Shown here piece after piece: positions 15,001-21,000 of a DNA stretch of 64,000 nt (within the stretch, counting starts at the first letter, position 1; each line of letters opens with the position of its first letter). The position numbers were made by a program. Source of the DNA: Leucoraja ocellata (lineage: Eukaryota); assembly GCA_036785375.1 (NCBI GenBank), contig JAWMAR010000101.1, positions 1,736,001 through 1,800,000 on the forward strand, written 5' to 3'.

Positions 15001-18000
15001 TTGGTGTACCTGAACTTTCAGAAAGCATTTAATAAGGTCCCACATCGGGGATTAATGGGCAAAATTAGAGCACATGGTATTGGGGGTAGGGTACTGACAT
15101 GGATAGAAAATTGGTTGGCAGACAGGAAAAAAAGAGTAGGGATTAACGGGTCTTTCAGAATGGCAGGCAGTGACTAGTGGGGTACCGCAAGGCTCAGTGC
15201 TGGGACCGCAGCTATTTACAATGTACATTAATGATTTAGATGAAGGGATTAAAAGTAACATTAGCAAATTTGCAGATGACACAAAGCTGGGTGGCAGTGT
15301 GAACTGTAAGGAGGATGCCATGCAGGGTGACCTGGATAGGTTGGGTGAGTGGGAAAATGCATGGCAGATGCAGTTTAATGTGGATACATGTGAGGTTATT
15401 GAAGATCATAAACCAATTGCAACTAACAAAGGTTCTACCTTTACCAAAACTGAAGAAAAGACAGGAACTAAGAGGAGAAGCAGTTTTGCTACCACTATAA
15501 TACCTGTGCAAACGACAGATGGAATGAAAGGAGATGTATCTACTATCAAGCAAATAGGATTTTGTTTGTTATGTGATGAAGTTGGTCACATCATAAGATG
15601 GTGTTGAAGATTCAAGAAGAAAGAATATGAACATAAGGTGGATTTCTTGAAATAGAAGGGAATCTGTTTTGGATATTTGCAAAAAGGACACATATGACAT
15701 TTGTCTTTAAATTTTACACTGCCCGTTATTATGTGGGTGGGATTTATGATGTCGTCAAGGGCGTGTTTGGTGCTGGGTTTCTTGCACAGAAGCTGTTTTA
15801 TAGTTTAGCTCGGGGCTACATGGGGAAGGAACACCCTTCGATCATGTGAAGATTAACCGAGACACGAGGGGTTTTCTAACGTTTAAAGCGATATGCTGGA
15901 CAAGATTAAAGTGTACGAGTCGAAGAAGAAGGTCGGATGTATATCTTATTGTTTTTCTTCAACAATAAAGAAACTATTAATCAAAAGACTGTGTTATGAA
16001 GATTTATCTGTGAAGAAGCTCTCAAGATCTCACGGAGAGCTCACATGTGTATTACAACATTTTCCTAAAGCCACGTAGTCTCTTTGGTGGCTAGAGGGAG
16101 TAATCTGTTGAACGATATAAAAATCTGCCACTACAGTACTCAGCTCCTTGAGTAATTCACCAGCAACTAGTTAATGACTGAATCTTTATGTAACCACATT
16201 AGCATCCTTGTGAGCCACACAGAGCCATTTATTTCCACTGCTTTACTGTCCATAATCCCAGGAAATACTGCTCACCCATTCTTATCTAGAAGCGGAGTGA
16301 GCAGAAAGAAAATCATAATGATATATTTATCATTACGATTGTCCTTCTCATAAGAATGAGTATAAGCAAAAATCTGTGAGGACAGATTATCCATACATCA
16401 TTATGATTGTCTTTCTCCTCTCTCCCCTTCTAGATAAGAATGGGTGAGCAGTATCTCTTGGGATTATGGACAGTAAAGCAGTGGAAAGATGAAGTGGCTC
16501 TAACATGTTCCGTACTTGCTTGTCCAAGAAATGCACCAGGTCTGGTAGCCTGGCTACTCGCTTCTTCTCATCCAATATTCCGCCTGCTTCATCTCTCCAC
16601 TTTTCTCTCAGTCTTCTGGGTAGCTTACTAATGATGACTCTACTATTACTGGCTAGATTCATTTCCTCCATGTGGCCGAGAGTTTTCATCGAGCTGCAAC
16701 AACCTTTTTAGAAATATTGCATAATCACTCAATGCCTCCCCATCTTCTGGCTTGATATATTTCCAAGCATGATCCTTCTCCATGTATGCGTTAGCAACCC
16801 TCTGTTCATTACCAAAACATTCTTTAAGTAACCTTCTTGTCTCTTTATAGCCTTGGCTGTCAGGCTTGTGTTGGCAACTTTCTGCAAGTACCTTAACACT
16901 TCTGCTTGTGTACTTCACCAGAAATCGTAAGCGCTCCTTTTCATCCATAATTTTGTTTCTAATACTTCTTCTAAAGCCCTTACGAAAGCTTCATACCGCA
17001 AAGGATCTCCATCATATGTAGGAATTTCTGCTGGTGGTAGAATGAGAGAGGTATTTTGTCGAGCTATAAATTCAGCTTGACTATTCATCAATGCCAATAT
17101 TCCATCCTGAAAACCTTGGCTTGGCGCCAATGAACGATAGGCAGGCCTCTGTGACTCAAACTGGCTTGCTCAAGACTGTGCATCAGGCCTTGGAAAAGCG
17201 TACTCAGCTGTTGGTTTGTCCCGAGCCTCTCTAGTGGCCCCATAAGTAGTTTGTTTCGGTCTAGCACCCATTTGCTGAGATGAGGTTTTACCCATCTTCT
17301 TCTGTTCCAATGGATGTTCAAAGCCGTGAAATCCAGTGGACCGCGATTGTGGAATTGATCCAACTGCTGACTCAATTGAAGCAGTTTTTCCTTTTGGTCC
17401 AGAGTTCATCATGTTCGATGCTCTAGAGCTGCATCTTGAACCCTCATTTTCAAATATCTCCTTCTTTGATTTAACCACCGCCATATTTGCATCTAGTTCC
17501 GGCTGTTTTTTTTGATGCCTCATCTCTTCTTTCTGTCGCATCCTCTCTTCTTTCATCTGTTCTTCTTGTCGCACAATCTCTTCTTCCTCTTGCTCAATCT
17601 CATGTTTCTTCTTCAAGGCATCTGCTTCTATTGAGAGAGCTGCTAGATCAGCTTCAACTCCCAATTGAGCAGAAGCCCTTGATGCCGAACTGGCTATAGA
17701 ACCAGAATTATGTCCTGATCTTCGTGTAAATATATTCGAGATATTATCTCGTGGTATAATCTCATCATCCAATCCAGCATCTTGTTGGATCGCACTTAAC
17801 ACCATATAACCATATAACAATTACAGCACGGAAACAGGCCATCTCGACCCTTCTAGTCCGTGCCGAACACATATTCTCCCCTAGTCCCATATACCTGCGC
17901 TCAGACCATAACCTTCCATTCCTTTCCCGTCCATATAACTATCCAATTTATTTTTAAATGATTTTAAATGACTTCCAGCTGTTGAGTGCGTAGGTTGTGG

Positions 18001-21000
18001 TATAATTTCAGATAACCACTCCTCTGTCCAATATTCCATGAAACCATTGAATATCTCCACTCTTGGCTCCCACCACTGGGTGTGTCTTTCATGTTCTTCC
18101 TGAGACGGCTCTGATTCCAACAGTTGGCTCTGCTTTTCTCCGAGCTCTTTATAAAGTCGCATATCTGCCCTAACTTACCTTCCACCTTGTTCACATTGTC
18201 ATCTGATTCCATTAGTTTCTTCAAGCCATCAAATAGCCTCCTTATCTTCTTCCACAACTTGTTTCTTTCCTTCTCAGTTTCTTTCAGGTAGGCAGCCTGG
18301 GTATTATCTGCATCCTCTCGATACTTTTGCCTGGCTCTGCCACCTTATGGTTCCTCCGACGTCTCAATTCCGTCATCTTCTCGCTCCATGGGTTTAAACA
18401 GGTCTTGGTAGATTGCCAAGTCTTTAAATTGAACGAACAAGGACTTCTTCAATCTGCTTTAATTTTGTGTAAACATCTTTTCTCAGGAACAATAACAAAT
18501 TGGATTTCCAGGCAACATCCCTCAACATCTACCAAGTTAATAATGATGTTAGTTCAAAAGGAATGCATCTTATCTTGACTTCAATACAATCCAAAGTCGG
18601 ACATCTGGATTTCTCCAGGCACAAGTGGAAAAACACTTTATCGGCTATCTTTCAAACTAGCAGAACTAGTTTTTTGGTAACCTTACAGAAGCCGTTCAAA
18701 ATTAAAGCTTTCCAGCTTCAAAATTCAATGTATAATAGTAATTTTCTACTCACAATTTTGTGATAATGTCTTCAATCTTCAGATAAGTTATGTCGTTGTC
18801 GATAAACCATAGGCCATCTGGCCGAGATCTATTCTTTTCAGTTCCTCTTCTGGAACCGGTCGTCTGGCCAAAACCTCTTTCGAGGTCCTAGCCAAGTCTT
18901 CTGTCCCACTCTCTGGGACTGGCTCTCACCTCCTGTCAGAGGTTGCCTTCGACTTTATGTAGCGGCAGATTTTTATATCGTTCAAGAGATTACTCCCTCT
19001 AGCCACTAAAGAGACTACATGGCTTTAGGAGAATGCCGTAATATGCATGTGAGCTCTCCATGAGACCTTCAGACCTTCTTCACAGATAAATCTTCATAAC
19101 AGAGTTGTTTGATTAATAGTTTCTTTACTGTTGAACAAAAACAATAAGATATACATCCGATCTTCTTCTCCGACTTGTACACTTTAATCTTGTTCAAACT
19201 CCAGCATATCGCATTTAATGTTAGGAAAGTGTCTCGGTTAAACTTCACATGATCGAAGGGTGTTCCTTCCCCATGTAGCCCCGAGCTAAACTAAAAATCT
19301 AAGCTTTTGTGTAAGAAACCCAGCACCAAACATGCCCTTGACTACGTCATAAATCCCACCCAACAGGCAGTCTAAAATTTAAAGACAAATGCCATCATTA
19401 ATGACACATAAAGAAGTCAAATAGCTACTACAAGTACTGTATCCCCACATGAATTATATAATCTTTTCTTAAAGAGAATAAGGAGGTCTCTAGGAATAAG
19501 GATCTCTATTCTAATGGTAGCCTACTTGTGGCCATAGTTGGTCTTCAGGAGGATGGATTTAAAGGAAATACATGGAAGAGCCAAAGTGAAGAAATAGGGA
19601 TAGCAATCTTTTAGAATGTATGGAGAAATTGATAGAATTAGAGAAGTAACTACTGGAAATGTTGCTGTACGTTCATTGAACAAGACATTAAGTTAAAGGC
19701 TCCTCATAACTAGGACAGACATCATGAAGAATCATTCTATAAAAAGGGTACAAAGAAACCTGAGCTTGTTACTGAAGAAAAGCAAGTATGACCATTGTAT
19801 TATTTTGCATGCCTCACTGTTTTATTTCACTGATTCTTGCTGGATGCCTGAGTGATGTTTCTAAGTAGTCTGGTGGCATCTATAATAGCATATCTATGGG
19901 TCCAGATCTCAGTCTCCTCCAGAATACCTTAATAGACATTAAATTAATTGGGCAAAATCTGCCATCAAGTTCAACTTGAGGTCCTGTTCGGCATGGACAC
20001 TATTACACATAGAGTATAATGAAGTAAACAAATTCAAGAGAATTAGGTCTGGACTTCTTCCTTTCATATTGGCTTTGTGCAAGAGTGAAGCTGGAAAAAT
20101 ACCTTTTCAAGTTCAAGTTCACATTTATTGCCACATGCACCAATTAAGGTTCAGTGGAATGTGATTTATCATGCAGCCACACAATCAAAAAGAGCACAAT
20201 ACACAATAGAATAAAACATGAACATCCACCACAGTGGAATCAACATTCTTCACTGCGGTGGAAGGCAATAACGTTCAGTCAGTCCTCCTTTCTTCATCCG
20301 TGGTCGGGGCCATGAACCCTCCGCAGTCACCGCTACGGACGGCACAATGTACAGGCCCTCTCGTCGGGGTGCTCGAAACTGCGACGTCGCGTCGGACGGA
20401 GAACGCGGCTTCACGATGTTATAGGCCGCAGGCCGGAGCTCTTTTCCGGTGATCCCCGGCGAGGGATCCCAGATTCCGCGATGGAAAGTCGACATCACGC
20501 CTGTGGCTAGAAGCTCCGCAGACCGCAGCTTCCGGATTTTATAGTCCGAGGGCCAGCGATCAGAGCACTTCTTCTGGCGATTTCTGGCAAGGGATCACCT
20601 GGCTCTGCGATGGAAACTCCGCCTGCGCCTGCTGCTGAAGCTCTGGGCCCGACTCTAGGCCGCACTAATCCAAGCTGTTAGCCCGCGCGAGAGGGAGGGT
20701 GAAAATGTGACCAGGAGAAAAGTCACATTACACTGAGGAAAGTGACTGTAAAGCAGTTTCCCCCCACCCCCCACCCCCCCCCCCCACCACCACCACCACC
20801 AAAACACACTAAATCACATTTTTAAACATACTAAAAACAAAAAAAATGTCGAAAGGACGAACAGCTGCTGGCGAGGCTGCCGGCTCACGACGCCACCCGA
20901 TGGAAAAGCAGACAAAAATGCTGGAGAAACACAACGGGTGAGGGAGCATCTATGGAGAGAAGGAATAGGCATCGTTTCGGGTTGAGACCATTCTTCAGAC

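What the first reader, a model, noticed from the sequence alone, without database searches (positions are those of the whole stretch)
15399..19437. BEL/Pao retrotransposon with LTRs in inverted orientation but a matching TSD
Seen: LTR copies at 18958-19432 (minus) and 15694-16135 (plus) face each other. In element orientation GTACT precedes the 5' LTR (19437-19433) and follows the 3' LTR (16136-16140), so both belong to one insertion. Gag runs on minus to ...NMLEPL (~16490) and resumes on plus at 15399 (IEDHK...zinc knuckles). It is then fused straight to a 5'-clipped LTR, with all of pol deleted. Inference: after insertion, a ~1 kb segment (gag 3' end, 3' LTR and host flank) was flipped, also removing the 3' end of the neighbouring CR1. 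The result is a ~440-bp inverted repeat 2.8 kb apart in THEMIS intron 1 that cannot collapse to a solo LTR and could form dsRNA in the pre-mRNA.
Basis: partly seen in the sequence, partly recalled or inferred. Interest (0 to 1): 0.65.

Follow-up and report, generated by a model that had tools for sequence, protein, structure and literature searches.

The report
Partly flipped dead retrotransposon in skate THEMIS
A long-dead BEL/Pao-type retrotransposon in the first coding intron of a skate THEMIS gene had about 1.1 kb of its tail end flipped by faulty DNA break repair, which is a tidy repair scar but otherwise ordinary genome decay.

Summary
Two LTR copies (15694-16135 on plus, 18958-19432 on minus) form an inverted repeat with 2822 nt between the arms. 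The same 5-nt duplication lies at the outer edge of each copy.

The key test was gag continuity. The minus-strand and plus-strand gag segments match adjoining parts of BEL/Pao gag proteins. Only 3 residues of the relative lie between them, so one gene was cut once. No pol match exists anywhere in the 64 kb window. A CR1-like LINE is cut exactly where the flipped piece begins.

Its outer end overlaps the end of the gag segment by 10 nt. Its arms have diverged as much as the LTRs (K2P 0.092 against 0.090). I read it as a fold-back copy made while the flipped piece was rejoined.

The element lies in the roughly 37.5-kb first coding intron of THEMIS (minus strand) in a skate genome. It is non-coding debris. 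dsRNA formation is computed as plausible but was not observed. Reads, orthologous loci and other family copies could not be examined. Interest is low to moderate.

The parts
13808..15399 (+). CR1-like LINE fragment (reverse-transcriptase region), cut off at its 3' side where the flipped piece begins; it carries a nested repeat
   Evidence: RVT_1 for 15170-15397, E 3.3e-9. Homology to other copies in the window stops at 15399 in 4 of 5 alignments. The named relatives are bird 'jockey-like' and Callorhinchus RT proteins. The LINE clade itself was not tested.
15398..15693 (+). gag 3' segment (linker plus zinc-knuckle region), flipped relative to the rest of gag and fused directly to the clipped LTR
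   Evidence: 55% identity to P0001 residues 557-623. tblastn outer bounds reach P0001 residue 653. 101 codons aligned, 59 identical, 0 frameshifts, 1 stop by my alignment and 2 by tblastn.
15694..16135 (+). left LTR copy: the 3' LTR, lacking its first 37 nt, flipped
   Evidence: Alignment to the right copy; repeat finder; K2P 0.090.
16136..16140 (+). target-site duplication copy (5 nt) that travelled with the 3' LTR
   Evidence: Read; identical to the copy at 19433-19437 when read in element sense.
16141..16220 (.). former host flank of the 3' LTR, now inside the structure (flipped)
   Evidence: No match to gag relatives, to the LTR or to anything else in the window.
16221..16501 (.). 281-nt palindrome: arms of roughly 105-125 nt around a short spacer. 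The left arm continues the host flank. The right arm ends in a 10-nt overlap with the gag 5' segment.
   Evidence: Repeat finder: 102-nt arms, 90% complementary, 52 nt apart. Self-BLAST 16221-16501. Alignment. DNA fold -99.6 kcal/mol, z -18.2. Arms K2P 0.092 +- 0.031. No other copy in the window.
16492..18389 (-). gag 5' segment (one broken gene part): N-terminal coiled-coil region and DUF1759-like core
   Evidence: tblastn to P0001 residues 2-549. 530 codons aligned, 306 identical, with 3 frameshifts, 1 in-frame stop and 2 long insertions, one of them a SINE-like repeat. HMMER search: 703 relatives at E<=1e-3.
18390..18957 (-). leader between the 5' LTR and the gag start (primer-binding region expected here, not analysed)
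   Evidence: Lies between the LTR end and the first gag match.
18958..19432 (-). right LTR copy: the complete 5' LTR (475 nt, TG...CA), in the same sense as THEMIS
19433..19437 (-). target-site duplication copy (5 nt) next to the 5' LTR
   Evidence: Read.
41148..41238 (-). THEMIS first coding exon (start codon to GT donor)
   Evidence: 31 of 31 residues identical to THEMIS of Leucoraja erinacea, P0151; donor read.
3451..3610 (-). THEMIS second coding exon (AG acceptor to GT donor)
   Evidence: tblastn to P0151 residues 28-86; splice sites read.
454..921 (-). THEMIS third coding exon (CABIT domain), at least this stretch
   Evidence: Pfam CABIT E 2.3e-28; 96.8% identity to P0151 residues 84-239.

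Best explanation
**Insertion.** One BEL/Pao-type LTR retrotransposon inserted into the first coding intron of THEMIS, in the same sense as the gene, and made a 5-nt target duplication.

**Rearrangement.** Later the DNA was broken twice: once inside gag, and once in host DNA beyond the 3' LTR, in or after a neighbouring CR1-like LINE. The piece in between was rejoined the wrong way round. About 1.1 kb of it survives: the gag tail, the clipped 3' LTR, the duplication copy and the host flank.

**Fold-back copy.** The host-side end of that piece had lost the LINE's 3' part. I propose that it folded back and copied about 115 nt of itself before joining to gag through a 7-nt perfect (9 of 10 nt) overlap. 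That would have left the 281-nt palindrome.

**Pol loss.** Pol and the first 37 nt of the 3' LTR were lost by an internal deletion, in the same event or a separate one.

**Present state.** Nothing coding survives. Gag has frameshifts, stops and nested insertions. The locus now holds two hairpin-forming inverted repeats inside a pre-mRNA. Recombination between the inverted LTRs could only re-flip the interior, not leave a solo LTR.

**Shown:** the arrangement, the homologies, the duplication, gag continuity, and the equal divergence of the LTR pair and the palindrome arms.

**Inferred:** the breaks, the fold-back synthesis, the order of events, and any RNA effect.
For: - **Inverted LTR pair:**
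- **Duplication:** the same 5-mer lies outside both LTR outer edges.
- **Gag continuity:** the gag runs abut in relatives. P0001 gives 2-549/553 and 557-653. Three residues lie between the runs in all 3 relatives whose alignments reach both ends. The last two residues of the minus segment match 6 of 7 and 4 of 7 aligned relatives, so the segment end is gag sequence.
- **Same copy:** both segments are 58% identical to P0001.
- **No pol** anywhere in the window.
- **LINE cut at the junction:** homology to other copies stops there.
- **Palindrome at the junction:** its outer end coincides with the gag junction. With 4 close inverted repeats in 64 kb, a random break would fall within 5 nt of an outer end only about once in a thousand.
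- **Palindrome is local:** it has no other copy in the window, whereas the 3 other close inverted repeats belong to a repeat family with about ten copies.
- **Similar age:** arm divergence 0.092 +- 0.031 against LTR divergence 0.090 +- 0.015.
- **Not a technical fold-back:** the arms are about 9% diverged, the junctions lie in unique sequence and there are no N.
- **Precedent:** fold-back inverted duplications at break-repair junctions that use microhomology are documented (PMC11724301, abstract read).
Against: - No reads, no second assembly, no orthologous locus and no other family copy could be examined, so everything rests on one 64-kb sequence.
- The duplication is only 5 nt.
- The 9% LTR divergence cannot be compared with the divergence between separate copies of the family.
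- The documented fold-back copies are mostly 5-34 bp (PMC11724301 abstract). These arms are several times longer.
- The middle of the palindrome is not a clean snap-back: it has extra, partly self-pairing sequence.
- A palindromic repeat already present in the flank is not excluded.
- The junction between gag and the clipped LTR shows no microhomology that I could resolve.
- The junction with the LINE shows only about 2 nt.
Confidence: 0.7

Rival explanations
1. The flip is real, but the palindrome was already there. A hairpin-forming repeat (MITE-like) lay in the host flank before the insertion, and the host-side break happened to fall at its outer end.
For: Close inverted repeats do occur in this window: 3 others in 64 kb. 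The centre of the focal palindrome is irregular rather than a clean snap-back. Its arms are longer than the documented fold-back copies (PMC11724301 abstract).
Against: The 3 other inverted repeats are built from a family with about ten copies in the window, whereas the focal palindrome has none. Its outer end overlaps the gag end by 10 nt, which is about a 1-in-1000 coincidence for a random break. Arm divergence equals LTR divergence, which this reading does not predict.
Confidence: 0.17
2. Assembly artefact. The true locus has direct LTRs, or is two loci, and the inverted piece is a mis-join or a chimeric read.
For: Only one assembly was seen. Repeat-rich introns are prone to error. No read evidence could be obtained.
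Against: There are no N in the window. The three joins (LINE to gag, gag to clipped LTR, palindrome to gag) lie in unique sequence, not at repeat edges. Both inverted repeats are about 9% diverged, unlike technical fold-back chimeras, whose arms are near-identical (established knowledge, recalled).
Confidence: 0.07
3. Two separate insertions of the same family in opposite orientation, each truncated, lying side by side.
For: Families of this kind have many copies. 9% LTR divergence could also be a between-copy value.
Against: The two gag remnants would have to be cut within 3 residues of each other in a gag of about 700 residues. They would also have to carry the same 5-nt flank (1 in 1024). 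The joint chance is of the order of 1e-5. Both remnants are equally distant from P0001.
Confidence: 0.04
4. A naturally inverted-LTR mobile element, either DIRS-like or a new mobile layout.
For: DIRS elements have inverse terminal repeats (PMC3950715, abstract seen in the listing).
Against: The relatives carry Pao peptidase and DDE-type integrase domains, and no tyrosine-recombinase family was reported. A target duplication is present, and one copy of it lies inside the structure with 80 nt of unrelated flank. Gag is split over two strands. A truncated LINE forms the left edge.
Confidence: 0.02

Closest known systems
BEL/Pao LTR retrotransposons (de la Chaux and Wagner 2011, PMC3118150; Background section read)
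   Same: LTRs of 0.44-0.48 kb fall within the 0.2-1.2 kb given there. Gag relatives carry DUF1759, Pao peptidase (Peptidase_A17), integrase and DUF5641. TG...CA ends and a 5-nt target duplication are present.
   Different: This copy has no pol. One LTR is clipped and flipped, and gag is split over two strands and broken several times. It is a remnant, not an element.
Fold-back (snap-back) templated inverted duplications at double-strand-break repair junctions (PMC11724301, abstract read; PMC2943611 and PMC5728401, search listing only)
   Same: An inverted copy of the sequence next to the junction, a short spacer, and microhomology where the copy meets the other end.
   Different: The arms here are about 105-125 nt, against mostly 5-34 bp in that study. 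This is a germline event in a vertebrate, seen only as an old scar. No enzyme can be assigned.
DIRS retrotransposons with inverse terminal repeats (PMC3950715, PMC7192593; abstracts in the search listing)
   Same: Long repeats in inverted orientation bracketing retroelement coding sequence.
   Different: DIRS elements use a tyrosine recombinase. Here the relatives have DDE integrase, there is a target duplication, and the inversion also carries host DNA.
Intronic inverted repeat pairs that form dsRNA in pre-mRNA and are edited A-to-I (inverted Alu pairs: PMC526178, abstract in the listing; editing across animals: PMC9989829, abstract in the listing)
   Same: Two copies of one repeat in opposite orientation within one intron, a few kb apart. 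The predicted duplex has 404 pairs at -658 kcal/mol.
   Different: LTR arms of 440 nt rather than 300-nt SINEs. No RNA data are available for this locus, so editing is not shown.
Internal deletions of LTR retrotransposons by illegitimate recombination (described for plant genomes; recalled, no paper read for it here)
   Same: Loss of pol, with one deletion end inside an LTR and the other in coding sequence.
   Different: Here it is combined with a flip of the remaining tail.

Membership tests
BEL/Pao LTR retrotransposon | Two LTRs with TG...CA ends flanked by a short target-site duplication | tested here: met
   The right copy starts TG and both end CA, with a 5-nt terminal inverted repeat. 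The same 5-mer lies outside both outer edges. The usual 4-6 nt size of the duplication is recalled.
BEL/Pao LTR retrotransposon | Gag of the DUF1759 (PF03564) type with CCHC zinc knuckles | tested here: inconclusive
   None of the 7 gag ORF pieces of the window reaches a Pfam family at its gathering score; the only row is PNMA at E 0.097, below its cut-off. The nearest relative, P0001, is 58% identical over 530 codons and carries PF03564. So do 7 of the 9 relatives scanned. One intact CCHC knuckle is read on the plus segment.
BEL/Pao LTR retrotransposon | Pol with Pao-type aspartic peptidase (Peptidase_A17), RT, RNase H and DDE integrase | tested here: not met
   Absent from the window. It is present in relatives found through gag: Peptidase_A17 in 4 of 9, DUF5641 in 6 of 9, and an integrase domain in 5 of 9. 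The copy is therefore filed as a remnant of the family, by gag homology only.
BEL/Pao LTR retrotransposon | Primer-binding site after the 5' LTR and polypurine tract before the 3' LTR | not tested
   The leader 18390-18957 was not compared with tRNAs. The tract region is lost with the deletion.
DIRS-like retrotransposon | Tyrosine recombinase, no target duplication, inverse terminal repeats at the element's own ends | tested here: not met
   The relatives have DDE integrase domains. A duplication is present, and one copy of it lies inside the structure. Gag is split over two strands.
Fold-back templated insertion at a repair junction | Inverted copy of the sequence next to the junction | tested here: met
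   The arms align at about 91% over 104 positions. The copy abuts the junction.
Fold-back templated insertion at a repair junction | Microhomology where the copy meets the other broken end | tested here: met
   There is a 10-nt overlap between arm homology (to 16501) and gag homology (down to 16492). Seven nt are perfect and 9 of 10 match.
Fold-back templated insertion at a repair junction | Short length (mostly 5-34 bp in PMC11724301) | tested here: not met
   The arms are about 105-125 nt. The working resemblance stands, but this is not a typical member.
Inversion by homologous recombination between inverted repeats | Breakpoints lie inside a pre-existing inverted repeat pair | tested here: not met
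   The joins lie in gag, in a LINE and in the host flank. No repeat is shared by the two ends of the flipped piece.

The most novel reading that the evidence does not exclude
The flip, the pol loss and a fold-back copy of more than 100 nt arose in one germline repair event close in time to the insertion itself, since the palindrome arms and the LTR pair are equally diverged. That would make this a natural vertebrate example of fold-back synthesis several times longer than the short copies documented at experimental breaks. The two nested inverted repeats would then persist in the THEMIS intron as a standing source of edited dsRNA.
Probability: 0.12. Interest if true: 0.45.

Novelty: new member of a known kind. 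Interest (0 to 1): 0.3.

Why it matters
It matters in three modest ways:
- It is a worked example of how to tell a rearranged single insertion from two neighbouring insertions, using gag continuity in relatives together with the target duplication.
- It preserves a readable repair scar: a flip, a fold-back copy and microhomology. Its age can be bracketed because the LTR pair and the palindrome arms are two built-in clocks.
- It places two strong hairpin-forming repeats in the pre-mRNA of an immune gene of a cartilaginous fish, which gives a defined place to look for A-to-I editing.

None of this changes what is known about BEL/Pao elements or about THEMIS.

Tried and rejected
**Searches that gave nothing**
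- Pfam on the window's own gag ORF pieces: none of 7 reached a family at its gathering score; the only row was PNMA at E 0.097, below its cut-off. Classification had to go through relatives.
- Rfam on the whole window: 0 matches.
- Exact look-up of 5 ORFs, including the two that span junctions: 0 of 5 in the collection.
- Protein search with the ORF spanning the LINE-gag join: 951 hits. The best 120 cover only the LINE half (about 54% of the query in most rows, at most 80% at 48% identity). No independent sighting of the join.
- Search for the lost pol elsewhere in the window: none.
- Search for other copies of the flank or the palindrome in the window: none.

**Mechanisms considered and rejected**
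- Autointegration of the cDNA. It would join LTR ends to gag. Here the LTR ends carry a host duplication, and gag is joined to host DNA.
- Recombination between inverted LTRs. The breakpoints are not in the LTRs.
- Staggered-break inversion with duplications at the two ends of the flipped piece. Here the two arms lie side by side at one end.
- A DIRS-type element (see the membership test).
- A purely replicative template-switch path. It does not explain why the two gag joins lie 3 residues apart, whereas a single break in gag does.

**Literature**
- 'inverted LTRs' plus 'retrotransposon' gave 3 papers, all on DIRS-1.
- A five-term search on illegitimate recombination, solo LTR, inversion and target duplication gave 89 papers, of which 12 were listed. 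I opened only PMC2773423 by passages, and it treats large inversions only.
- I therefore make no claim that such a layout is unpublished.

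
Full report
**1. What is in the sequence**

The window has no N and 42.6% G+C.

The repeat finder and a self-BLAST find an inverted pair at 15694-16135 (+) and 18958-19395 (-), with 2822 nt between the arms. The pairwise alignment shows three things:
- The right copy continues to 19432.
- The right copy begins TG, and both copies end CA.
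- The left copy lacks the first 37 nt.

Over 429 aligned positions there are 23 transitions, 13 transversions and 4 gap openings. K2P is 0.090 +- 0.015. Ten of the 36 differences lie in a CpG context.

The same 5-mer lies outside both outer LTR edges when each is read in element sense. The observation therefore stands at the stated coordinates.

**2. One element or two**

This is the decisive question, and gag answers it.

Pfam gave no usable match for the window's own gag pieces: none of 7 reached a gathering score (the only row, PNMA, was at E 0.097). A word-indexed protein search with the ORF at the inner end of the minus-strand gag found one relative, P0001. It is 700 aa, from Leucoraja erinacea, and carries PF03564/DUF1759. 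A full HMMER search with a 100-aa core piece found 703 relatives at E<=1e-3.

Evidence that gag is one gene cut once:
- Against P0001, the minus run covers residues 2-549. It is alignable to about 553.
- The plus run starts at residue 557 and reaches 653.
- Of 55 relatives of at least 450 aa, 29 match both strands and 25 match only the minus strand.
- In the 3 relatives whose alignments reach both segment ends, exactly 3 residues lie between the runs.
- The last two residues of the minus segment agree with 6 of 7 and 4 of 7 aligned relatives.
- Both segments are 58% identical to P0001: 306 of 530 codons and 59 of 101 codons.

Two independently truncated copies would have to share both a cut point within 3 residues and a 5-nt flank. 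The joint chance is of the order of 1e-5. I conclude that this is one insertion cut once in gag.

**3. Family**

Nine relatives were scanned against Pfam:
- DUF1759 in 7 of 9.
- DUF5641 in 6 of 9.
- Peptidase_A17 (Pao retrotransposon peptidase) in 4 of 9.
- An integrase domain in 5 of 9.

That is the BEL/Pao set. The LTR length fits the 0.2-1.2 kb given for the group (PMC3118150, Background section). The window copy itself has no pol: 55 relatives gave no true match outside the focal region. Membership therefore rests on gag homology.

- Minus segment: 3 frameshifts, 1 in-frame stop and 2 long insertions. One of the insertions is a SINE-like repeat with three other copies in the window.
- Plus segment: no frameshift, and 1 stop by my alignment or 2 by tblastn.
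- In addition there is the cut that separates the two segments and the deletion that fuses gag to the clipped LTR.

**4. The neighbours**

*Left neighbour.* An RT-bearing LINE fragment lies to the left (RVT_1). Its named relatives are bird 'jockey-like' and Callorhinchus RT proteins. Its homology to other copies in the window stops at 15399 in 4 of 5 alignments. Those copies continue with LINE sequence that is missing here. LINEs are not normally truncated at the 3' side at insertion (established knowledge), so this cut belongs to the rearrangement. About 2 nt are shared at that join.

Properties of the palindrome:
- The repeat finder gives 102-nt arms, 90% complementary, 52 nt apart.
- BLAST and the alignment extend the arms outwards to 16221 and 16501.
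- It folds at -99.6 kcal/mol as DNA, with z = -18.2.
- Its outer right end overlaps the gag segment end by 10 nt: 7 perfect, 9 of 10 matching.
- Arm divergence is 0.092 +- 0.031, the same as the LTR pair.
- It has no other copy in the window.
- The 3 other close inverted repeats in the 64 kb are built from a repeat with about ten copies.

**5. Mechanism**

The two gag joins lie 3 residues apart. That points to a single break in gag both of whose ends were reused. One end joined to the LINE, and the other joined to the far end of the piece that was turned round.

That far end had lost the LINE's 3' part and an unknown stretch of host DNA. I propose that it folded back, copied about 115 nt of itself, and joined to gag where the new copy offered a 7-10 nt overlap. 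This is the logic of fold-back or synthesis-dependent microhomology-mediated end joining:
- PMC11724301, abstract read.
- PMC2943611 and PMC5728401, search listing only.

Two points count against a textbook case. The documented copies are mostly 5-34 bp, and the centre of this palindrome is irregular. The pol deletion may belong to the same event or to another one.

The equal divergence of arms and LTRs says that the rearrangement is old and not much younger than the insertion. The error on the arms is wide, roughly 0.03-0.15.

For scale, half of 0.09 is 0.045 substitutions per site per lineage. At a vertebrate-type neutral rate of 1-2e-9 per year, that is tens of millions of years. The rate is recalled, not measured for skates.

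**6. Host gene**

An ORF at 418-867 (-) is a CABIT domain (E 2.3e-28). Its best named relative is THEMIS of Leucoraja erinacea at 96% identity, followed by other rays, sharks, a chimaera and the coelacanth. I therefore take the window for a skate genome, not human.

Searched exon by exon, THEMIS maps as follows:

| THEMIS residues | Window coordinates (minus strand) |
|---|---|
| 1-31 | 41238-41146 |
| about 32-84 | 3610-3451 |
| 84-239 | 921-454 |

The donor and acceptor sites are canonical. I did not build a joined exon model; that step was left out.

The element lies inside the roughly 37.5-kb first coding intron. The complete LTR and the gag 5' segment are in the sense of the gene. Whether an upstream non-coding exon exists was not tested, so "intron 1" means the first coding intron.

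**7. What it does now**

It has no coding capacity. In the pre-mRNA the two LTR arms could pair:
- 404 pairs at -658 kcal/mol, against -149 +- 6.5 for 20 shuffles of one arm.
- The longest exact shared run is 51 nt.

The small palindrome folds at -178.9 kcal/mol as RNA.

Intronic inverted repeat pairs are classic A-to-I editing substrates (PMC526178 and PMC9989829, abstracts in the listing). For this locus that is inference only.

**8. What stayed unchecked**

- There were no reads, no second assembly, no orthologous locus and no other DNA copy of the family.
- Supplements are closed. The family lists in the supplement of PMC3118150 might show whether cartilaginous-fish BEL/Pao families were catalogued.
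- I make no claim that the layout is unpublished.

**Verdict**

It is a rearranged remnant of a known kind of element with a readable repair scar. Interest is low to moderate.

Noticed in passing
other copies at 40052-40201, 53282-53442 and 37513-37674; one more copy lies inside the gag 5' segment (16492-18389): A SINE-like repeat of about 150-160 nt is nested in gag. It is 96% identical to the copy near 40.1 kb and about 85% identical to two others, so that family was active after the retrotransposon had landed.
   Followed up: partly
copies at 2239-2565, 8649-8976, 31498-31824 and 60876-61052; one more copy lies inside the LINE fragment 13808-15399: A repeat of about 325 nt with copies 93-95% identical to one another is nested in the CR1-like LINE. 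It is a young, abundant family of unknown type.
   Followed up: no
23770-23957, 100-245 and 26422-26931: Three further close inverted repeats, with arms of 65-87 nt and 14-356 nt apart. They are built from a repeat of about 90 nt that has about ten copies in the window. These may be head-to-head SINE tails or MITEs.
   Followed up: partly
the two LTR copies, 15694-16135 and 18958-19432: The only AATAAA hexamer of the LTR is kept in the copy that is antisense to THEMIS and is not kept in the copy that is sense to THEMIS. This is a single difference, so it may be chance, but it is the direction expected if an intronic polyadenylation signal were disfavoured.
   Followed up: no
51816-53393 (+), 33617-34426 (+), 9573-10262 (-): Further LINE reverse-transcriptase ORFs, one of them 525 aa long (RVT_1, E 2.1e-31). 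The intron is largely built of LINE and SINE debris.
   Followed up: no
17499-17606: Four overlapping copies of a 33-nt unit, spaced 21 or 33 nt apart, in the part of gag that matches the repetitive coiled-coil stretch of P0001. It is a coding repeat of the family rather than a separate feature.
   Followed up: no
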